From the sequence record PZ452608.1: a stretch of 64,000 bases of DNA; one strand, 5' to 3'. Below, in pieces: positions 16,651 through 51,267 of this stretch; position 1 is the stretch's first letter; each line of letters opens with the position of its first letter. The notes beneath the pieces are model-generated. The model was given only the letters and a program-made list of their open reading frames with translations. It searched no databases and was not told the DNA's origin. Origin of the DNA: a phage. Position numbers and translations under genes: made by a program.

Positions 16651-17128
16651 AGAATATCTACACTATGACCCCGAAACAGGGGTCTTTACGTGGATAAAGA
16701 AAGCAGCTAACAGAACAGTTATAGGTTCCATTGCGGGTACACCACATAAGCGGGGCTATATTAGGATAAAAATTAAAAGAAAATCCTATATGGCTCATGA
16801 TTTAGCAATCCTGTACACAGATGGTTTCCTGCCTAACAGGGTAGACCACCGCAACGGTATTACTAATGATAATCGGAGATTAAATCTAAGGGTTTGCACA
16901 CAAGCTGAAAACTCTTGGAACAGAAGAACGCACTCCAACAACACATCTGGAGTTAAGGGTGTATCTTTCTATAAGGCTAACCAAAAATGGAAGGCCAGAA
17001 TTATGACACACGGGGTATCTCATTTTCTGGGGTATTTTGACAGTATTGAAGATGCCAAAGATGCAGTCACAAAGAAAAGAGAAGAACTACATAAAGAGTT
17101 TTCAAATCACGGAGAAGCTTATGAATGA
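16613..17128 (+). CDS. HNH homing endonuclease (HNH plus AP2-like domain)
   Basis: YDPETGVFTW start, VDHRNGITNDNRRLNLRVCTQAEN HNH motif, GVKGVSFY...WKARI AP2-like; start ambiguous (track uses TTG at 16604). Confidence 0.6.
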   Translation: MVGLQMLTQQILKEYLHYDPETGVFTWIKKAANRTVIGSIAGTPHKRGYIRIKIKRKSYMAHDLAILYTDGFLPNRVDHRNGITNDNRRLNLRVCTQAENSWNRRTHSNNTSGVKGVSFYKANQKWKARIMTHGVSHFLGYFDSIEDAKDAVTKKREELHKEFSNHGEAYE

Positions 17129-17622
17129 AGATTAAAGGATTTGGCAATTGTCCCACCTACGGCCATTGGGTATCTTTGTGTGGGGAAGTTGACCCCACTA
17201 AACATTTTGGTTTTGTCTATTTAGTACACTGTAAGAAAACCGGACAATATTATATCGGAAAGAAACAGCTTAATAGTGTGACTAAAAGAAAAGTTGCTGG
17301 CAAGACTCGGAAGAAGGTAGTCACTAAGGAGAGTGATTGGATGACTTATGAAACTTCTTCTGAGTATATTAAAAAAGATATTGAGAGCTTTGGAAAAGAA
17401 TTTTTTGACTTTTACATTATTCAGACCTACTACACAAAAGGTGGCCTAGTCTATGGTGAAGCAAACCTTCAACATAAATTCGATGTAATGACAAAAAGGA
17501 TTGACTCTAAGCTCAGACTCTTCTACAATGCCAATATTGCAGCAATTAAGTTTATTACTAAAGAAACTTATGAAGATGCTGAAAAAAGAATCCATAAGGT
17601 AATGAAAGCAAACTGTGCTTGA
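17125..17622 (+). CDS. GIY-YIG-like endonuclease domain protein
   Basis: FGFVYLVHCKKTGQYYIGKK resembles GIY-(10-11)-YIG motif; GGAGAAG RBS. Confidence 0.4.
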   Translation: MKIKGFGNCPTYGHWVSLCGEVDPTKHFGFVYLVHCKKTGQYYIGKKQLNSVTKRKVAGKTRKKVVTKESDWMTYETSSEYIKKDIESFGKEFFDFYIIQTYYTKGGLVYGEANLQHKFDVMTKRIDSKLRLFYNANIAAIKFITKETYEDAEKRIHKVMKANCA

Positions 17623-27793: not shown

Positions 27794-27844
27794 ACAGATA
27801 CTATAAGGGGACTGTAAAGGTTCCCTTTTTATTTTGGAGGTAAA

Positions 27845-28360
27845 ATGTATCTGTCAAACCTGAAACGTTCGGTTGCAATGTCAGTTCTAAGACTCAGCTT
27901 TGATGAGCGTCAAGAGTTTATAGACTCCCACAAATATGACCCTTCAAATTCTAATCACATGGTTCTTTGGAATCGTGGTAACTTACGTGAAAGAGCACTT
28001 GTCCGTTATTACCCACACTACACAATAGATAACCTGTATGAATGGTGTGTTGTGAAGAACACCATTGCAACACTGAACAATCTTTGCAGGTATACGGGTA
28101 AGCAAATATTTACATTAGGTCATCACAAACCTGTTACAAAAGGTGGTGAACATCACTGTGCAAACTGGTTTATCCAAACTAAAGCTGATAACCAGAAGCA
28201 AGGAGATAGCCTCCTAAGTATCCCTAAGATGACCTATGAAGAGCAAGAGAAATATATCAAAAATAATATGCCAGATGTGCTTGACAACAACTATACAGAT
28301 TTGGCAATATCTCTCCTGTTGAAGTTCGAGACAGTTTATAGGGCAACTTATAATGACTAA
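27845..28360 (+). CDS. hypothetical protein, possible HNH-like nuclease
   Basis: GHHKPVTKGGEHHCANW...N..K segment is HNH-like; weak. Confidence 0.3.
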   Translation: MYLSNLKRSVAMSVLRLSFDERQEFIDSHKYDPSNSNHMVLWNRGNLRERALVRYYPHYTIDNLYEWCVVKNTIATLNNLCRYTGKQIFTLGHHKPVTKGGEHHCANWFIQTKADNQKQGDSLLSIPKMTYEEQEKYIKNNMPDVLDNNYTDLAISLLLKFETVYRATYND

Positions 28361-28631
28361 AGAAAAGTGGGAGATTTTACCATTAGTCAGTGAAGGAGGT
28401 AATGGTTGTGAAATGTACATGATACGTGGTCATGTTCCAGAGCCAATTGCACTTGAGATGGTAAACAACTTTACAGATGGTTCTTACAAAGACTTAGGCG
28501 AACCAACTGTCAAGCAACAATGGGTTAAACCTGTACCAGACAGCACAGGTAACTGTAGTGTACTTTATCACGTTGTAGACCCTGCAAAATGCAAATCTGC
28601 AATGGCAGTAACAAACGTAACTTTTGATTGA
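28353..28631 (+). CDS. hypothetical protein
   Basis: 92-aa ORF. Confidence 0.35.
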   Translation: MTKEKWEILPLVSEGGNGCEMYMIRGHVPEPIALEMVNNFTDGSYKDLGEPTVKQQWVKPVPDSTGNCSVLYHVVDPAKCKSAMAVTNVTFD

Positions 28632-28642
28632 GAGAGAAAACT

Positions 28643-29524
28643 ATGAAAACATCTATCCGTGTTACAGTTCATTCACCAACTAAAGGGACTCATGAAGAAG
28701 AGTTTAACATCGTCCAATTCCCTTCTGGTGAGATTGGTGGACACTTTTCGCCAGAGTTTGTTGATTTTACTGCTTATGCAGCATCATCCATCAACAATGT
28801 GATTATGATTGTAAAAGGTTATGACAAGGACACATTGTTTGCTGTGGCACTTGCTAAAGAAGCAATTGATGATTTAATTCCTCATGATTATGCTTTAAAG
28901 ACTGTCATCTTTTACTACTTACCAAATGCACGATATGACCGTCACATGTTTAAAGGTGACGCAGCAGCTTTAAAGGTTTTTGCTAAACAGATTAATGCAA
29001 TGGGATTTGGCGCAGTCTGTGCAGTTGACCCTCACAGCTATGTACCAGATAACCTGTTTAACTGCTTCCAGAGTATTCCTCAAAAGGAGATTGCAGTCCA
29101 CTATGCAAATGACCCACTGGTTGATTACTTAGTAGCCCCAGATGCAGGTGCTGCTAAGAAGGTTGCAGAGACCGCTAAAGAGGTGGATAAACCATATATC
29201 ACAATGTCTAAGGTGCGTAACCTTAAGACTGGTGAAATTACTGGTATGCGAATCCTTGATGATGTTGATTTGACAGATAAAACCGTCATGATTCTGGATG
29301 ATATCTGTGATGGTGGTCGAACCTTCATAGAAGCAGCTAAGCATCTCCGTGAAGCAGGTGCAAAACGTGTGGAACTCTATGTAACACATGGTATCTTCTC
29401 TAAAGATGTTGAAAACCTTCTTGACAATGGTATTGACCATATCTACACTACAAACTCTTTAGGGGAAGCTAAAGACCGTGGCTTAACACATTATGGTCAA
29501 GTTACTGTAGCAAACCTTGATTGA
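28643..29524 (+). CDS. ribose-phosphate pyrophosphokinase family protein (Prs-like; possible ADP-ribose pyrophosphokinase)
   Basis: PRTase motif VMILDDICDGGRTF, C-terminal VTHGIFS...TTNS and N-terminal NARYDRH resembling Prs; ATG start with GAGAGAGA RBS. Confidence 0.65.
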   Translation: MKTSIRVTVHSPTKGTHEEEFNIVQFPSGEIGGHFSPEFVDFTAYAASSINNVIMIVKGYDKDTLFAVALAKEAIDDLIPHDYALKTVIFYYLPNARYDRHMFKGDAAALKVFAKQINAMGFGAVCAVDPHSYVPDNLFNCFQSIPQKEIAVHYANDPLVDYLVAPDAGAAKKVAETAKEVDKPYITMSKVRNLKTGEITGMRILDDVDLTDKTVMILDDICDGGRTFIEAAKHLREAGAKRVELYVTHGIFSKDVENLLDNGIDHIYTTNSLGEAKDRGLTHYGQVTVANLD

Positions 29525-29533
29525 AACTTTATA

Positions 29534-29554
29534 GGGGCTTAAAAGCCCCATTTT
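29534..29554 (+). terminator. intrinsic terminator
   Basis: GGGGCTTAAAAGCCCC then ATTTT. Confidence 0.5.
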
Positions 29555-29569
29555 GAGAGAGATTAAAAG

Positions 29570-31351
29570 ATGACTAAATCACTTTATGCAGTACCAGCAG
29601 GTTTAAATGCAGATGCTTACAAATCTGGTCATGTTTACCAGTATCCTAGTGCAACAGAATACTTGATGTTCAACCTGACACCACGTAGTGATAAATGGTT
29701 TAACAGCCCTTTAGCAATTGACGGTGTAGTGGCTTTTGGTATTCAACGTTTTGTTAAAGATTACTTGATAGACCACTGGAACGCCACTTTCTTTGAACGT
29801 GATAAAAAAGAAGCCATTGATGAAATCTTAGAAGTCATGAATGGTGTTCTGGGTAAAGATGCTATCGGTCGAGAGCATTGGGAAGCACTTCACGACTTAG
29901 GTTATCTACCAGTTGAAGTATACGCTGTAGAAGAAGGTACAGTTGTCCCTATGCGTGTCCCAATGATTGTCTTCCAGAACACTGTTTCAGGTTTCCATTG
30001 GGTAGCGGGATATCTGGAAGATGCTTTCTCTGCTGAGATTTGGAAGGCTTGTACCATTGCAACTATTGCATTGCATTATAAACGCATCTGTAAGAAGTGG
30101 GCTGACCTTACTTGCGACAATGACTTACATTTACCTTATCAGTGCCATGACTTTGCTATGCGTGGTATGTCCGGCTTTACTGATGACGCATTTAACGCTG
30201 TAGGCCACTTAACCAGCTTTAAAGGGACTGATAGCTTCCCTGCTGTATATACAGCTAAACGCATCTACGGACAGTCTTACCCAGTCTCTGATATTGGTGG
30301 TTCTGTACCAGCCACTGAACACTCTGTAATGTGTGCAAACATTGCTTGGGAAGGTGGTAATGAGTTGGTTGAAGAAGAAAGACGCTTTAAAGGTGAGTTG
30401 CAAACCTTCCGTCGCTTCTTAACAGAAACTTATCCAACTGGTATTGCAAGTATTGTTTCAGATACTTATAACTTCTGGAGAACTGTGTCAGAAATCTTAC
30501 CAGCACTCCGTAAAGAAATTATGGAACGTGACGGTAAACTGGTGATTCGTCCTGATTCTGGAGACCCTGTACATATTGTCACAGGTTATAAAGCAATCCA
30601 CTTAGAATGTGCTAAGAAGGCTTATTACGAGCACCTAAGCAAGCTGGAAGCCAGTGACACAATGCTGAATGCTGTTCTGAACATGAAGCTTGAAAATATC
30701 AGCTATGGTATTGCTGGATGGCTACTGTCAGAAGGCTACGAAATGGTTGTTGACAGAGAAGACTTTGAAGTTGCTGACACAGTGATGTTGAAAAATGCTT
30801 ATATGGTTGGTTCTGCAAACGTTGTAACACGTCCTGTAGCTGAGATTGATGGAGCTATTAAGACTCTGTATAACATCTTTGGAGGAACTATTAACTCTAA
30901 AGGTTTTAAGGTACTGGATGAGCACATTGGACTTATCTATGGCGACTCTATCACGTTGGAACGTGCAAACGAAATCCTGAAGCGTCTGTATGAAATGGGG
31001 TTTGCAAGCTCTAACGTGGTGTTTGGTGTAGGCTCTTACACTTACCAGTACATGACTCGTGACACCTTTGCATTTGCTGTCAAAGCAACTCTTGCAAGCA
31101 TTGGTGGCAAAGAGATTATGCTTGCAAAAGACCCTAAAACAGATAGTGGTGTTAAGAAATCTGCCTTTGGTGGTGTAGCACCTATGTGGGATGGTGAGAA
31201 TTTGAAAGCTGTAGATGGCTATGGATTCCAGAGCTTTGCAGATGCACTTGAACATCCAGCTTGTGCTTTACGTTTAGTCTTTAGCGACTCTGAGCAGTAC
31301 GGTTACACAACTCTTGGTGATATTCGAAATAATATTGACAAGCAGCTTTAA
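29570..31351 (+). CDS. nicotinamide phosphoribosyltransferase family protein (NadV/NAMPT-like)
   Basis: ADAYKSGHVYQYP, HDFAMRGMSG (DFGxRG), FKGTDSF motifs of the NAMPT family; 593 aa. Confidence 0.7.
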   Translation: MTKSLYAVPAGLNADAYKSGHVYQYPSATEYLMFNLTPRSDKWFNSPLAIDGVVAFGIQRFVKDYLIDHWNATFFERDKKEAIDEILEVMNGVLGKDAIGREHWEALHDLGYLPVEVYAVEEGTVVPMRVPMIVFQNTVSGFHWVAGYLEDAFSAEIWKACTIATIALHYKRICKKWADLTCDNDLHLPYQCHDFAMRGMSGFTDDAFNAVGHLTSFKGTDSFPAVYTAKRIYGQSYPVSDIGGSVPATEHSVMCANIAWEGGNELVEEERRFKGELQTFRRFLTETYPTGIASIVSDTYNFWRTVSEILPALRKEIMERDGKLVIRPDSGDPVHIVTGYKAIHLECAKKAYYEHLSKLEASDTMLNAVLNMKLENISYGIAGWLLSEGYEMVVDREDFEVADTVMLKNAYMVGSANVVTRPVAEIDGAIKTLYNIFGGTINSKGFKVLDEHIGLIYGDSITLERANEILKRLYEMGFASSNVVFGVGSYTYQYMTRDTFAFAVKATLASIGGKEIMLAKDPKTDSGVKKSAFGGVAPMWDGENLKAVDGYGFQSFADALEHPACALRLVFSDSEQYGYTTLGDIRNNIDKQL

Positions 31352-31365
31352 AAGTATATGATAAG

Positions 31366-31387
31366 AGGCTCCTACGGGAGCCTTTTT
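31366..31387 (+). terminator. intrinsic terminator
   Basis: GGCTCC-TACG-GGAGCC then TTTTT. Confidence 0.55.
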
Positions 31388-31404
31388 AATTTCTGGAGAA
31401 GATT

Positions 31405-31740
31405 ATGAAAATCAAAGAGATGAACATCAACATTGTCTTAGAAGAACGTTGGGAGAATATTAAGAAACCTGAAGATGGTAAAAAGTTCCTTAACAAAATT
31501 TTAGTAGCAGCTAAAGAAGAACTGAATGGCAAGATTGCAGCAGCAGTCACAATAAAAGTTTGTGTAAAAGGTCTTCCAGACAACCACCAATTTGCGCTTG
31601 ACGAGTTTAAAAAAAGCTTCTACAATCCAAACAAACAGATGCTTGAAAGTAACTTTGCAGTATCTACAAGTATCGTCCATGACAGAAGCTTTATCCTTTA
31701 CAAAAATATGAGAGGTGAGTCATGCAAGCATATTGGATAG
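31405..31740 (+). CDS. hypothetical protein
   Basis: 111-aa ORF. Confidence 0.4.
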   Translation: MKIKEMNINIVLEERWENIKKPEDGKKFLNKILVAAKEELNGKIAAAVTIKVCVKGLPDNHQFALDEFKKSFYNPNKQMLESNFAVSTSIVHDRSFILYKNMRGESCKHIG

Positions 31741-38853: not shown

Positions 38854-39639
38854 ATGGGTATTGTAAAAATAATCAATGGTGATATCTTTGCCGCATTTGA
38901 TAAAGGTAAGTTTGACATCATCGGTCACGGTTGCAACTGTATGAATTTAATGGGTGCAGGTATCGCTGACAAGATTTCTAAACTTTACCCAAAAGCATAT
39001 GAGACCGATACAGAAGTTTATCTATATGCAGGTGGTATAGGACACAAACCCTGTGAAAATTTACTGGGTAATTTCTCTGTAGCACGTTTAAAACAAGGTC
39101 GTATAGCTAACCTTTACACTCAGCTTAAGACTGGTAAAGATGCCCGATACAGTGCTTTAGAGTCATCTTTGAAACAGCTTAACAGATACTGTGAAGTTAA
39201 TCAGTTGAGGAAAGTTGGTTTACCTATGATTGGTGCAGGTATCGGTGGGTTGGACCCTCAAGCCGTCACAGTTATCATCAATCAGGTGATGAAGAGTGTA
39301 GATGTTTATCTATATGTCTATGAAGGAGAGATGTACCACAAGTTACGCTCAGGTTGGAATAACTACTGTGAACCAGAATACTTTGCAGGTGTAGTAACGT
39401 TCAAAGATGATACAGTTACCCTCTTCAGACGAAGAAAAGGTAAGATACATCAAAGTAACCCTCCGGTTGAGAAGATGTCTCTAAGTAACGCTCTAGTTAC
39501 CCACCTGTCGAAGAGCAATCACAGGATAGCCGTAACATTTGGCAGTGATGCAGATACATATATTTATGCAAGAACTGATGAGGATATCGAGACGGTCTTC
39601 TCTTCACCGGAAGTTACCTTCTTAGACGCAAAGAACTAA
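38854..39639 (+). CDS. macro-domain protein (ADP-ribose binding/processing) with C-terminal extension
   Basis: IINGDIFAAFDKGKFDIIGHGCNCMNLMGAGIA and VGLPMIGAGIGGLDP resemble macro-domain motifs. Confidence 0.5.
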   Translation: MGIVKIINGDIFAAFDKGKFDIIGHGCNCMNLMGAGIADKISKLYPKAYETDTEVYLYAGGIGHKPCENLLGNFSVARLKQGRIANLYTQLKTGKDARYSALESSLKQLNRYCEVNQLRKVGLPMIGAGIGGLDPQAVTVIINQVMKSVDVYLYVYEGEMYHKLRSGWNNYCEPEYFAGVVTFKDDTVTLFRRRKGKIHQSNPPVEKMSLSNALVTHLSKSNHRIAVTFGSDADTYIYARTDEDIETVFSSPEVTFLDAKN

Positions 39640-50685: not shown

Positions 50686-51267
50686 TCAAGAGTATTTTTT
50701 AGGCAGTAATGCACTGCGCTTGTTGCTCTCTTCACTCAGCAGTGCAATAAATTCATCACCTTTACCCTTCCACGGACTAAATGTAGGGATATGTTCTCTG
50801 ATAGCATCAATCACTGTTTTCAGGGCGTTATTTTTTAACCACCAATCAGACACTGCTGAGGCTACAATATAATAAGCACCATCATCTGTGAAGATTGGCT
50901 CAGAGATACATGGTGAAATCATAGTGGTGATGATAGAGCCGTTATTCATGTAATATGTTCTTTTTTCAACCTTATCAAGAAGTTTATGAAGGTCTGCAAA
51001 GAGACTCACAACCTCTTTATGGTCAATATCTTTTTCAAGATTTGCTCTATATTTCAGCAGTGCAGCATCAACCTCTTTATCATTGAATTTGAAGTATTGG
51101 ACTTCTTCATTCACACATACACTGATATTGTTGGTGTTTATCGTCAATTTGCACAGTTTGACTGGAGAATTGATGTTGGTCTGAAAAAGTGCTACACAGC
51201 CTTCTACATTTCCGAAATGTTTTACTAATGTAACTTCTGGTTGGATATGCTCATGTTCTTCTGACAT
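50686..51267 (-). CDS. hypothetical protein
   Basis: 193-aa ORF. Confidence 0.4.
   Translation of the reverse strand: MSEEHEHIQPEVTLVKHFGNVEGCVALFQTNINSPVKLCKLTINTNNISVCVNEEVQYFKFNDKEVDAALLKYRANLEKDIDHKEVVSLFADLHKLLDKVEKRTYYMNNGSIITTMISPCISEPIFTDDGAYYIVASAVSDWWLKNNALKTVIDAIREHIPTFSPWKGKGDEFIALLSEESNKRSALLPKKYS

What the first reader, a model, noticed from the sequence alone, without database searches (positions are those of the whole stretch)
28643..31351. Adjacent Prs-like and NAMPT-like genes: candidate NAD+ reconstitution (anti-defence) pair
Seen in sequence: a Prs-family enzyme (PRTase motif VMILDDICDGGRTF; VTHGIFS...TTNS) sits immediately upstream of a NAMPT-family enzyme (ADAYKSGHVYQYP, DFAMRG, FKGTDSF). 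Established knowledge: a Prs-homologue ADP-ribose pyrophosphokinase paired with a NAMPT-homologue transferase forms the phage NARP1 pathway, which rebuilds NAD+ from ADP-ribose and nicotinamide and counters NAD-depleting defences (Thoeris, DSR, SIR2-type systems). Inference: this pair is such a module rather than ordinary PRPP/NMN metabolism; no NMNAT-like gene was seen nearby, which favours the NARP1-type route over the NadV plus NMNAT route. The 593-aa NAMPT-like protein is longer than typical NAMPT.
Basis: partly seen in the sequence, partly recalled or inferred. Interest (0 to 1): 0.65.

Follow-up and report, generated by a model that had tools for sequence, protein, structure and literature searches.

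The report
Known phage NAD+ rebuilding operon (NARP1)
These two adjacent genes are the already described NARP1 pair (Adps plus Namat), which Felix O1-like coliphages use to rebuild NAD+ from ADP-ribose and nicotinamide when a bacterial defence destroys it; this phage, wV8, is already listed as a NARP1 carrier in the paper that discovered the pathway.

Summary
Two co-directional genes lie at 28643-29524 (293 aa, Prs-like) and 29570-31351 (593 aa, NAMPT-like), and all quoted motifs are present. The stretch is 100% identical to Escherichia phage wV8 (Felixounavirus).

The 593-aa protein is 98% identical, without gaps, to gp80 of phage Bas63. The 293-aa protein is 78% identical to Bas63 gp79. Deleting these two Bas63 genes defined NARP1 genetically (Osterman et al.), and a second study confirmed it. 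wV8 genes EU877232_00148 and _00149 appear in that paper's supplementary tables as a Namat-associated Adps and an Adps-associated Namat.

I tested the family features:
- The Namat signature GSYTYQYMTRD is present.
- All 20 NAD+ contact residues of the SpβL1 Namat crystal structure are kept or conservatively replaced.
- The best structural match is Namat 9W5X (TM 0.95).
- The catalytic lysine of Adps is present.
- The Prs 5-phosphate loop is changed (DDICDGGRT instead of DDMIDTGGT).
- No NMNAT, Macro or RyR gene flanks the pair.

The extra length of Namat comes from two insertions. One is a roughly 75-residue folded subdomain with no fold match.

One new lead: a Macro-domain protein of the Adpp (ADPR-1''-phosphate phosphatase) family lies 7.5 kb downstream. 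The published survey scanned only two genes either side of NARP1 and would have missed it.

The parts
28643..29524 (+). adps: ADP-ribose pyrophosphokinase of NARP1 (293 aa from the ATG; an in-frame TTG at 28628 would add 5 aa). GenBank annotates it as ribose-phosphate pyrophosphokinase (wV8 gene 135).
   Evidence: It has Prs-family domains and is 78% identical to Bas63 gp79. It is listed as EU877232_00148 with 'Namat within 10 genes: Yes'. It scores 227 bits on an Adps profile, against 134 bits for E. coli Prs. K190 corresponds to the catalytic K162 of SpβL1 Adps. The loop reads DDICDGGRT where Prs has DDMIDTGGT.
29534..29549 (+). Intergenic stem-loop GGGGCU-UAAA-AGCCCC followed by AUUUUG, between adps and namat. 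It could be a weak attenuator or a transcript-stabilising hairpin.
   Evidence: Read from the sequence. The 45-nt spacer folds at -12.6 kcal/mol, z -2.9 against shuffles. The terminator scan did not call it because only four U follow the stem. Its function is inferred only.
29570..31351 (+). namat: nicotinamide ADP-ribose transferase of NARP1 (593 aa). GenBank annotates it as nadV / nicotinamide or nicotinate phosphoribosyltransferase (wV8 gene 136). It carries insertions at about aa 256-272 and 340-427.
   Evidence: It is 98% identical to Bas63 gp80 and listed as EU877232_00149 'Adps-associated'. The best PDB sequence hit is SpβL1 Namat 9W5W/9W5X at E 1.6e-127, against about 1e-40 for human NAMPT. 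The AF2 model has pLDDT 92.9; its best Foldseek hit is 9W5X with target-normalised TM 0.95. The selectivity-clamp helix motif GSYTYQYMTRD lies at aa 488-498 and the clamp-loop residues are K42-W43. All 20 NAD+ contact residues are conserved or conservatively replaced.
31363..31386 (+). Intrinsic terminator directly after namat: a 10-bp stem with 5 G-C pairs, followed by UUUUUAAUUU.
   Evidence: Found by the terminator scan. The fold is -16.6 kcal/mol, z -3.3. Sequence.
27805..27827 (+). Upstream terminator-like hairpin. It marks the likely 5' boundary of a four-gene unit (gp77-like, gp78-like, adps, namat).
   Evidence: Found by the terminator scan. The fold is -14.1 kcal/mol, z -2.0. The transcription-unit boundaries are inferred, not shown.
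27845..28631 (+). Two small overlapping genes just upstream in the same putative unit: 27845..28360 (171 aa, PHROG 3500) and 28353..28631 (92 aa, PHROG 4726). They are not part of NARP1 chemistry.
   Evidence: ORFs; PHROG hits. They are 89% and 98% identical to bas63_0077 and bas63_0078. The PhageMaP preprint reports Bas63 gp77 as a counter to the Ec67 retron.
38854..39639 (+). Candidate accessory gene, not adjacent to the pair. It encodes a 261-aa Macro-domain protein of the Poa1p/Adpp-like family (aa 4-155) with an uncharacterised C-terminal extension of about 100 aa. It is the homologue of bas63_0095, annotated 'putative phosphatase'.
   Evidence: Pfam Macro at 31.6 bits and PHROG 335 'phosphatase' at E 8e-113. 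A profile of 11 published NARP1-operon Adpp proteins hits it at E 2.3e-32 and 107 bits over the full profile; it is the only hit in the six-frame ORFs of the window. It is 27% identical to Vibrio phage Gary Adpp, and the His mutated in that study (H24A) is conserved as H25. Any role with NARP1 is a hypothesis.

Best explanation
The two genes are the NARP1 operon of a Felixounavirus; the window is identical to Escherichia phage wV8. When a host defence (SIR2-HerA/Nezha, type I Thoeris, DSR1/DSR2, SEFIR and similar) cleaves NAD+ into ADP-ribose and nicotinamide, NARP1 rebuilds it in two steps. Adps (28643-29524), a diverged PRPP-synthetase homologue, transfers pyrophosphate from ATP to the free ribose C1'' of ADP-ribose, giving ADPR-pyrophosphate. 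Namat (29570-31351), a diverged NAMPT homologue, then joins ADPR-PP to nicotinamide and releases pyrophosphate. This regenerates NAD+ directly, without NMN or an NMNAT. The pathway consumes the breakdown products of the defence, so it is idle in undefended cells. What is shown here: identity of the genes with the characterised Bas63 operon, and conservation of the defining sequence and structural features. What is taken from the literature: the chemistry (purified SpβL1 enzymes) and the anti-defence phenotype (Bas63, Fado, SBSphiJ knock-in). What is inferred: that the wV8 alleles behave the same, including the diverged N-terminal two-thirds of Adps and the insertions in Namat.
For: (1) The region is 100% identical to wV8, and 239 phage records, nearly all Felixounavirus-like, carry at least 80% of it.
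(2) Namat is 582/593 identical to Bas63 gp80 and Adps 228/293 identical to gp79, both without gaps.
(3) In Bas63, deleting genes 79-80 sensitises the phage to SIR2-HerA and abolishes NAD+ recovery. ADPR-PP appears only in defended cells infected by wild-type phage. The effect does not depend on host pncC or nadR.
(4) An independent knockout screen found a 10^4-10^6 drop in plating on Sir2-HerA for either single deletion, rescued by complementation.
(5) wV8's own proteins are in the NARP1 supplementary tables.
(6) Namat-specific features are present: the clamp-helix motif GSYTYQYMTRD, the clamp-loop residues K42-W43 as in Bas63, and all NAD+ contact residues of PDB 9W5W.
(7) The best sequence and fold matches are the Namat crystal structures, ahead of NadV and NAMPT.
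(8) Adps keeps the K-x-R catalytic loop, RxDR and DPHS, but changes the 5-phosphate loop. It scores 227 bits on an Adps profile built without Felixounavirus sequences, against 124 bits on TIGR01251. It fails every NCBIfam Prs model that names the enzyme specifically.
(9) No NMNAT or NUDIX was found among the 38 ORFs scanned.
Against: Nothing measured here contradicts it. The limits are these.
- No experiment has been done on wV8 itself.
- The Bas63 Adps 'did not purify well', so the in vitro chemistry comes from the SpβL1 enzymes. Those are only about 30% (Adps) and 37-39% (Namat) identical to the window proteins.
- The first 170 residues of wV8 Adps are only 57-73% identical to Bas63 Adps.
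- SpβL1 Namat can still make NMN from PRPP in vitro, so some ordinary NAMPT activity cannot be excluded.
Confidence: 0.93

Rival explanations
1. Ordinary nucleotide and NAD salvage, as annotated in GenBank. Under this view the first enzyme is a PRPP synthetase and the second a NAMPT or NAPRT that makes NMN, which host NadR or PncC then converts to NAD+.
For: The public annotations say so. The general Prs model TIGR01251 is just passed (123.6 bits against a 113-bit cut-off), and NCBIfam PRK09198 names the second protein 'nicotinate phosphoribosyltransferase'. SpβL1 Namat makes NMN from PRPP in vitro when ADPR-PP is absent.
Against: Bas63 still overcomes SIR2-HerA in a ΔpncC ΔnadR host, and SpβL1 Adps yields no Prs product. 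Every NCBIfam Prs model that names the enzyme specifically is missed by 190-480 bits. The 5-phosphate loop is altered. The Namat adenine-clamp motif, which NAMPT lacks, is present. When both substrates are offered, only NAD+ is made.
Confidence: 0.03
2. NARP2-type route: a NadV/Nampt works with a phage NMNAT encoded elsewhere in the genome, and the Prs homologue merely boosts PRPP supply.
For: The second-best structural matches are NadV structures (9KEO/9KE8). RefSeq labels wV8 gp115 'NAD synthetase'.
Against: The 'NAD synthetase' ORF (17125..17622) is a SegE-type GIY-YIG endonuclease by Pfam at E 9e-28, with no NAD-related hit. No NMNAT or NUDIX family appears among the 38 ORFs scanned. The published phylogeny places wV8 Namat in the Adps-associated clade, not the Nmnat-associated clade.
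Confidence: 0.02
3. An extended pathway acting in trans (NARP1-AP-like). The Macro-domain protein at 38854-39639 would dephosphorylate ADPR-1''-phosphate, the product of aRES-type NAD+ phosphorolysis, to ADPR. That would feed Adps and Namat even though the gene lies 7.5 kb away. This extends the best explanation rather than replacing it.
For: The protein matches a profile of published NARP1-operon Adpp proteins over its full length at 107 bits, E 2e-32, far above its Pfam Macro score of 31.6 bits. The His mutated in Gary Adpp is conserved. The gene keeps the same position, about 9-10 kb downstream of Namat, in contigs whose Namat is only about 49-54% identical overall. The published survey looked only within two genes of NARP1, and its table lists no enterobacterial phage.
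Against: The same profile scores equally well (88-131 bits) on short homologues that have no NARP1 within 6 kb in three other phage contigs. The match therefore shows membership of a broad Poa1p-like phage Macro family, not linkage to NARP1. Conserved position could simply reflect shared ancestry. Macro domains of this group also remove ADP-ribose from macromolecules or deacetylate O-acetyl-ADPR; the best PDB hits are OARD1/TARG1. The 100-aa C-terminal extension is unexplained.
Confidence: 0.3

Closest known systems
NARP1 of Escherichia phage JohannRWettstein (Bas63), genes 79-80 (Osterman et al., bioRxiv 10.1101/2024.02.11.579819)
   Same: Same genus, same gene order and same flanking genes (NrdG upstream, rIIA/rIIB downstream). 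Namat is 98% identical and the same length, including both insertions. Adps is the same length, with residues 171-293 at 93% identity.
   Different: The 5' part of adps, about 520 nt (28606-29145), is only 66-77% identical at DNA level, while the flanks are 90-99% identical. wV8 therefore carries a different allele of the N-terminal two-thirds of Adps. No experiments have been done on wV8.
NARP1 of Bacillus phage SpβL1 (biochemically and structurally characterised Adps and Namat; PDB 9W5X, 9W5W; PMC12774641)
   Same: Same two-gene arrangement, same catalytic lysine in Adps, same NAD+ contact residues and the same clamp-helix motif in Namat. The model superposes on 9W5X with target-normalised TM 0.95.
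   Different: Identity is only about 30% for Adps and 37-39% for Namat. The clamp loop uses K42-W43 instead of R40. The window Namat has two insertions, about +14 and +72 aa, that SpβL1 lacks. The Adps phosphate loop is DDICDGGRT rather than DDLSSFGGT.
NARP2 of Vibrio phage KVP40 (NadV/Nampt plus bifunctional Nmnat)
   Same: A phage-encoded NAMPT-fold enzyme used to restore NAD+ during infection.
   Different: NARP2 starts from PRPP, needs an Nmnat and has no Adps. Here an Adps is adjacent, no Nmnat was found, and the Namat clamp motif is present.
NARP1-AP of Vibrio phage Gary (Adps-Adpp-Namat; bioRxiv 10.64898/2026.01.28.702374) and the RyDEP-containing NARP1 locus of phage DyoEdafos (bioRxiv 10.64898/2026.05.28.727677)
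   Same: The same core pair. A protein of the same Macro family as Adpp exists in this genome.
   Different: No Macro or RyR-domain gene lies within or next to the operon. The Macro gene is about 14 genes downstream, is 261 aa rather than about 155 aa, and has not been tested.
Cellular PRPP synthetase (Prs) and NAMPT/NadV
   Same: Same folds and the same phosphoribosyl/pyrophosphoryl-transfer chemistry.
   Different: The substrates are the ADP-ribose analogues (ADPR, ADPR-PP). The Prs 5-phosphate loop and the NAMPT pocket entrance are both remodelled.

Membership tests
NARP1 Adps (ADP-ribose pyrophosphokinase) | Prs-family fold and domains | tested here: met
   Pfam Pribosyltran and Pribosyl_synth. 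TIGR01251 at 123.6 bits against a 113-bit cut-off. The PDB hits are Prs enzymes at E 3e-18 to 1e-12.
NARP1 Adps (ADP-ribose pyrophosphokinase) | Belongs to the Adps subgroup rather than to canonical Prs | tested here: met
   It scores 227 bits on a profile of 12 Namat-associated Adps proteins from unrelated phages, against 134 bits for E. coli Prs. It falls far below every NCBIfam Prs model that names the enzyme specifically. It shares the DDICDGG[RAMG]T loop of Gram-negative phage Adps, where Prs has DDMIDTGGT.
NARP1 Adps (ADP-ribose pyrophosphokinase) | Catalytic lysine equivalent to SpβL1 K162 / B. subtilis Prs K197 | tested here: met
   K190 in MSKVRN aligns with K162 in GHKQRN, and the K-x-R spacing is kept.
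NARP1 Adps (ADP-ribose pyrophosphokinase) | A Namat gene within 10 genes (true of 97% of the clade) | tested here: met
   Namat starts 45 nt downstream on the same strand. The published table flags wV8 as 'Yes'.
NARP1 Adps (ADP-ribose pyrophosphokinase) | Converts ADPR and ATP to ADPR-PP, and does not make PRPP | not testable with these tools
   Shown in vitro only for the SpβL1 enzyme. ADPR-PP was detected in vivo for Bas63.
NARP1 Namat (nicotinamide ADP-ribose transferase) | NAMPT-like fold with an intact catalytic core (F189, R192, D215, R306, D308 in SpβL1 numbering) | tested here: met
   AF2 model pLDDT 92.9, and Foldseek 9W5X at E 9e-54 with TM 0.95. F195, R198, D221, R327 and D329 are conserved.
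NARP1 Namat (nicotinamide ADP-ribose transferase) | [quoted passage not shown] | tested here: met
   GSYTYQYMTRD at aa 488-498, with Y490 and Y494 aromatic. The motif is also present in all 33 aligned homologues.
NARP1 Namat (nicotinamide ADP-ribose transferase) | Selectivity-clamp loop with Arg/Lys/Tyr at the third position and a stacking residue | tested here: met
   PRSDKWF: K42 followed by W43, identical to Bas63, for which the paper assigns stacking to the fourth residue. The stacking geometry itself was not modelled here.
NARP1 Namat (nicotinamide ADP-ribose transferase) | Prefers ADPR-PP over PRPP and makes NAD+ directly | not testable with these tools
   Shown for SpβL1 Namat only.
NARP1 as an anti-defence system | Loss of the pair sensitises the phage to NAD+-depleting defences | not testable with these tools
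   Shown for Bas63 in two independent studies. Not done for wV8.
NARP2 (Nampt plus Nmnat) | An Nmnat encoded by the same phage (true of 94% of that clade) | tested here: not met
   No CTP_transf_like or NUDIX hit in the 38 ORFs of the window scanned. The 'NAD synthetase' annotation is a GIY-YIG endonuclease. About 24 kb of the genome lies outside the window.
NARP1-AP (NARP1 with associated phosphatase Adpp) | A Macro-domain gene within two genes of the NARP1 pair | tested here: not met
   The five genes upstream and three downstream have no Macro hit.
NARP1-AP (NARP1 with associated phosphatase Adpp) | An Adpp-family protein encoded by the phage and acting on ADPR-1''-phosphate | tested here: inconclusive
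   A homologue exists at 38854-39639 (107 bits on the Adpp profile, catalytic His conserved). The profile does not separate NARP1-linked from unlinked homologues, and the activity is untested.
RyDEP-containing NARP1 loci | A RyR (PF02026) domain gene inside the operon | tested here: not met
   No RyR hit in the neighbouring genes.

The most novel reading that the evidence does not exclude
Felixounaviruses, including wV8 and the model phage Bas63, may run an extended NARP1 in which the phosphatase is encoded apart from the operon. The conserved 261-aa Macro-domain protein (38854-39639; bas63_0095), about 14 genes downstream, would be an Adpp-type ADPR-1''-phosphate phosphatase. It would convert the product of aRES-type NAD+ phosphorolysis into the ADPR that Adps needs. 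The published estimate that 15% of NARP1 phages carry Adpp, which came from scanning two genes on each side, would then undercount. The roughly 200 Felixounavirus-like genomes would be predicted to resist aRES. Separately, the roughly 75-aa folded insertion in Namat, which has no fold match and sits at a site where other lineages carry an unrelated insert, may add a regulatory or interaction function.
Probability: 0.3. Interest if true: 0.4.

Novelty: already known. Interest (0 to 1): 0.12.

Why it matters
For the finding itself there is little new. It confirms that a reader working from sequence alone can recognise NARP1. It also shows that the public records for wV8 and about 240 related phages still carry misleading names: 'ribose-phosphate pyrophosphokinase', 'nicotinate/nicotinamide phosphoribosyltransferase' and even 'NAD synthetase' for an endonuclease.

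There is some practical relevance. wV8 and its relatives are used for E. coli O157 typing and biocontrol. NARP1 predicts that they can overcome SIR2, TIR, DSR and SEFIR-type NAD+-depleting defences.

The side observation would matter modestly if confirmed. A distal Adpp-like Macro gene would extend the known NARP1-AP counter-counter-defence to the phage genus where NARP1 was discovered. It could be tested at once in Bas63, which already has deletion tools.

Tried and rejected
1. My guess of the Bas63 accession (MZ501111) was wrong; that record is Bas51. The correct accession, MZ501086, came from the PhageMaP preprint.
2. I took the RefSeq label 'NAD synthetase' for wV8 gp115 as a possible missing NAD enzyme. 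I rejected it because Pfam shows a SegE GIY-YIG endonuclease and NCBIfam gives nothing. My first coordinates for this ORF were off by one and failed.
3. I looked for Macro, RyR, NMNAT or NUDIX domains in the immediate neighbours and found none.
5. I tested whether the match to the Adpp profile argues for linkage to NARP1. It does not: unlinked short homologues in three other phage contigs score the same.
6. The sigma-70 promoter scan around the operon gave 16 sites against 11.8 ± 3.6 expected, which is not informative. I assign no promoter.
7. A literature search for a described Felixounavirus Macro-domain function returned nothing relevant.
8. I did not use the metagenome or genome collection scans, the representative-protein search or RNA-family tools. 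The question was settled without them.


Full report
**What is in the sequence**

Two co-directional ORFs occupy the flagged interval on the + strand.
- The first runs 28628..29524. The ATG at 28643 follows a GAGAGAGAAAA leader and is the start used in the wV8 and Bas63 records. It gives 293 aa.
- The second runs 29570..31351 and encodes 593 aa.
- The 45-nt spacer contains a stem-loop, GGGGCU-UAAA-AGCCCC followed by AUUUUG. It folds at -12.6 kcal/mol, z -2.9.
- A clear intrinsic terminator at 31363-31386 follows the second gene. A terminator-like hairpin at 27805-27827 lies upstream.
- The pair therefore probably sits in a four-gene unit with two small upstream genes. This is an inference.

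**Where the window comes from**

The stretch 28400-31500 is 100% identical to Escherichia phage wV8 (EU877232 / NC_012749; Ounavirinae, Felixounavirus). Exact identity runs to the last base of that record, so the window crosses the record's arbitrary ends. In the phage collection, 259 records match and 239 cover at least 80% of the query. Almost all are Felix O1-like phages of Escherichia, Salmonella, Shigella and Citrobacter. They annotate the genes as 'ribose-phosphate pyrophosphokinase' and 'nicotinamide/nicotinate phosphoribosyltransferase'.

**Family assignment**

- The first protein has Pribosyltran and Pribosyl_synth domains. It just passes the general Prs model TIGR01251 (123.6 bits against 113).
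- It misses every NCBIfam Prs model that names the enzyme specifically by hundreds of bits, for example 92 against 297.
- The second protein has NAPRTase and NAMPT_N domains.
- PHROGs place them in families 619 and 448.

**Link to the known system**

NARP1 was defined by Osterman et al. (bioRxiv 10.1101/2024.02.11.579819) using BASEL phage Bas63 (JohannRWettstein), itself a Felixounavirus.
- Deleting genes 79-80 made Bas63 sensitive to SIR2-HerA and abolished NAD+ recovery.
- ADPR-pyrophosphate appeared only in defended cells infected by wild-type phage.
- The effect did not need host PncC or NadR.
- The Bas63 protein did not purify well, so the chemistry was established with the SpβL1 homologues: ADPR + ATP gives ADPR-PP, and ADPR-PP + nicotinamide gives NAD+.

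I fetched Bas63 (MZ501086) and compared the proteins.
- The window's 593-aa protein is 582/593 identical to gp80, with no gaps.
- The 293-aa protein is 228/293 identical to gp79, with no gaps.
- The flanking genes are also collinear: NrdG upstream, rIIA and rIIB downstream.

An independent knockout screen in Bas63 found that either single deletion lowers plating on Sir2-HerA by 10^4-10^6, rescued by complementation. It found smaller effects on the Ec86 retron and hhe.

wV8 itself is in the supplementary tables of the NARP1 paper. [quoted passage not shown] The finding is therefore a catalogued instance of a published system.

**Membership tests: Namat**

The structural study of SpβL1 Namat (PMC12774641; PDB 9W5X and 9W5W) defines three elements:
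- a NAMPT-like catalytic core;
- an adenine 'selectivity clamp' helix with the signature GS-X-Φ-X-Φ-X-Φ-TRD;
- a clamp loop whose third residue is Arg, Lys or Tyr.

In the window protein:
- The helix motif is GSYTYQYMTRD (aa 488-498).
- The loop reads PRSDKWF, with K42-W43 as in Bas63.
- All 20 residues that contact NAD+ in 9W5W are identical or conservatively replaced: D15, Y17, K42/W43, F195, A196, R198, D221, A248, R327, D329, G458, D459, S460, G488, S489, Y490, Y494, T496, R497, D498.
- By sequence, the best PDB hits are the Namat entries at E 1.6e-127. H. ducreyi NadV scores 1e-103 and mammalian NAMPT about 1e-40.
- An AlphaFold2 model built on 34 homologues has pLDDT 92.9 and pTM 0.91. 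Its best Foldseek hits are 9W5X/9W5W with target-normalised TM 0.93-0.95.

**Membership tests: Adps**

I aligned the window protein with Bas63 gp79, SpβL1 Adps, a Pseudomonas phage Adps and E. coli Prs.
- The pyrophosphoryl-transfer elements are conserved: FPxGE, RxDR, DPHS and the K-x-R loop. K190 matches SpβL1 K162, the residue mutated in the original work.
- The loop that binds the 5-phosphate of ribose-5-phosphate in Prs (DDMIDTGGT) reads DDICDGGRT. Most Gram-negative phage Adps proteins share this variant.
- A profile built from 12 Namat-associated Adps proteins of unrelated phages scores the window protein at 227 bits and E. coli Prs at 134 bits.
- That the altered loop accommodates the ADP moiety is my inference. 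No Adps structure was found in the PDB copy.

**Alternatives**

- Ordinary PRPP/NMN salvage is contradicted by the Bas63 ΔpncC ΔnadR result, by the lack of Prs activity in SpβL1 Adps, and by the features above.
- A NARP2-type route needs an Nmnat. Pfam scans of 38 window ORFs gave no CTP_transf_like or NUDIX hit.
- The RefSeq product 'NAD synthetase' for wV8 gp115 (window 17125..17622) is in fact a SegE-type GIY-YIG endonuclease at E 9e-28.
- About 24 kb of the genome lies outside the window and was not scanned.

**Why Namat is 593 aa**

In the 34-sequence alignment, homologues without insertions are 488-500 aa. These include chromosomal Klebsiella, Cronobacter and Erwinia copies that also carry the Namat motif.

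The window protein has about 14 extra residues near aa 256-272 and about 72 extra residues at aa 340-427. Both sites vary in length across phage Namats. At the second site, three homologues (P0094, P0097, P0114) carry an unrelated insert of similar size.

**Mosaic adps**

Against Bas63, DNA identity drops to 66-77% exactly from the adps start to about 29145. It is 90-99% on both sides. Protein identity is 57-73% over residues 1-170 and 93% over residues 171-293. Many Felixounavirus records match the query only from position 291 onward. At least two alleles of the N-terminal part of Adps therefore circulate in the genus.

**A lead outside the interval**

A 2026 preprint (10.64898/2026.01.28.702374) reports the following.
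- aRES defences cleave NAD+ to nicotinamide and ADPR-1''-phosphate.
- NARP1 cannot use that product.
- Some phages add a Macro-domain phosphatase, Adpp, to the operon (NARP1-AP).
- The survey scanned only two genes on each side of NARP1, and its table lists no enterobacterial phage.

In this window the immediate neighbours have no Macro or RyR domain. The ORF at 38854..39639 (261 aa; 97% identical to bas63_0095 'putative phosphatase') does have a Macro domain (Pfam 31.6 bits).
- A profile I built from 11 published Adpp sequences hits it over the whole profile at 107 bits, E 2.3e-32. It is the only hit among the six-frame ORFs of the window.
- It is 27% identical to the characterised Vibrio phage Gary Adpp and keeps the histidine mutated there: H24 corresponds to H25.
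- Homologues with the same C-terminal extension of about 100 aa occupy the same position, about 9-10 kb downstream of Namat, in two contigs whose Namat is only about 49-54% identical overall.

There is a caution. The same profile scores 88-131 bits on short homologues from three other phage contigs that have no NARP1 within 6 kb. The match shows membership of a broad Poa1p-like phage Macro family, not a specific link to NARP1. I rate a NARP1-supporting phosphatase role at about 0.3.

**Verdict**

The novelty class is 'already known'. Interest is low (0.12). The residual value lies in the distal Adpp-like gene, the unexplained Namat insertion subdomain and the allelic mosaic in adps.

Noticed in passing
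window 38854-39639 (+): A 261-aa Macro-domain protein (97% identical to bas63_0095 'putative phosphatase') matches a profile of published NARP1-operon Adpp phosphatases at 107 bits over the full profile, and the catalytic His is conserved. It has an uncharacterised C-terminal extension of about 100 aa. It lies about 14 genes downstream of Namat, so the published survey (two genes either side) would have missed it. The same profile also hits homologues that are not linked to NARP1.
   Followed up: partly
[not shown]
   Followed up: partly
window 28606-29145: Mosaic patch. The first 520 nt or so of adps are only 66-77% identical to Bas63, while the flanks are 90-99% identical. Many Felixounavirus records match only from about nt 291 of the operon. 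At least two alleles of the Adps N-terminal region circulate.
   Followed up: partly
window 17125-17622 (+): RefSeq names this wV8 gene (gp115) 'NAD synthetase'. Pfam shows a SegE-type GIY-YIG endonuclease domain at E 9e-28 and nothing related to NAD, so the annotation is probably wrong.
   Followed up: yes
window 27805-31386 (+): Terminator-like hairpins at 27805-27827 and 31363-31386 bracket four genes: a 171-aa protein (PHROG 3500, weak HNH-like hit), a 92-aa protein (PHROG 4726), adps and namat. The PhageMaP preprint reports the Bas63 homologue of the 171-aa protein (gp77; 89% identical) as a counter to the Ec67 retron. The unit may therefore be a small anti-defence cluster.
   Followed up: partly
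window 29525-29569 and 28625-28642: Both genes are preceded by the same TTGAGAGAGA leader. The adps-namat spacer holds a 6-bp G+C-rich hairpin followed by AUUUUG (-12.6 kcal/mol, z -2.9). It could be a partial terminator or a stabiliser that sets the ratio of the two enzymes.
   Followed up: partly
PHROG 12872 hits on both proteins; Shigella phage Ag3 entry FJ373894_00125 in the published table: Some phages appear to encode Adps and Namat as one polypeptide. A 547-position PHROG profile matches Adps aa 67-237 with its N-terminal part and Namat aa 409-587 with its C-terminal part. The Ag3 sequence switches from Adps to Namat sequence after DDICDGGRTFVE. This could be a natural fusion or a mis-assembly.
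   Followed up: no
proteins P0069, P0073, P0083, P0119: Chromosomal proteins of about 496 aa from Klebsiella, Cronobacter, Erwinia and Kosakonia are 40-48% identical to the window Namat and carry the Namat clamp motif (GSYTYQYNTRD or GSFTYQYNTRD). This fits the bacterial NARP1 copies reported in PMC12774641. I did not check their genomic context.
   Followed up: no
window 50686-51267 (-): A 193-aa ORF has weak, sub-threshold Pfam hits to an AID/APOBEC-like deaminase family (SNAD1, 18 bits, E 0.003) and to DUF5092. This is probably noise, and I did not examine it.
   Followed up: no
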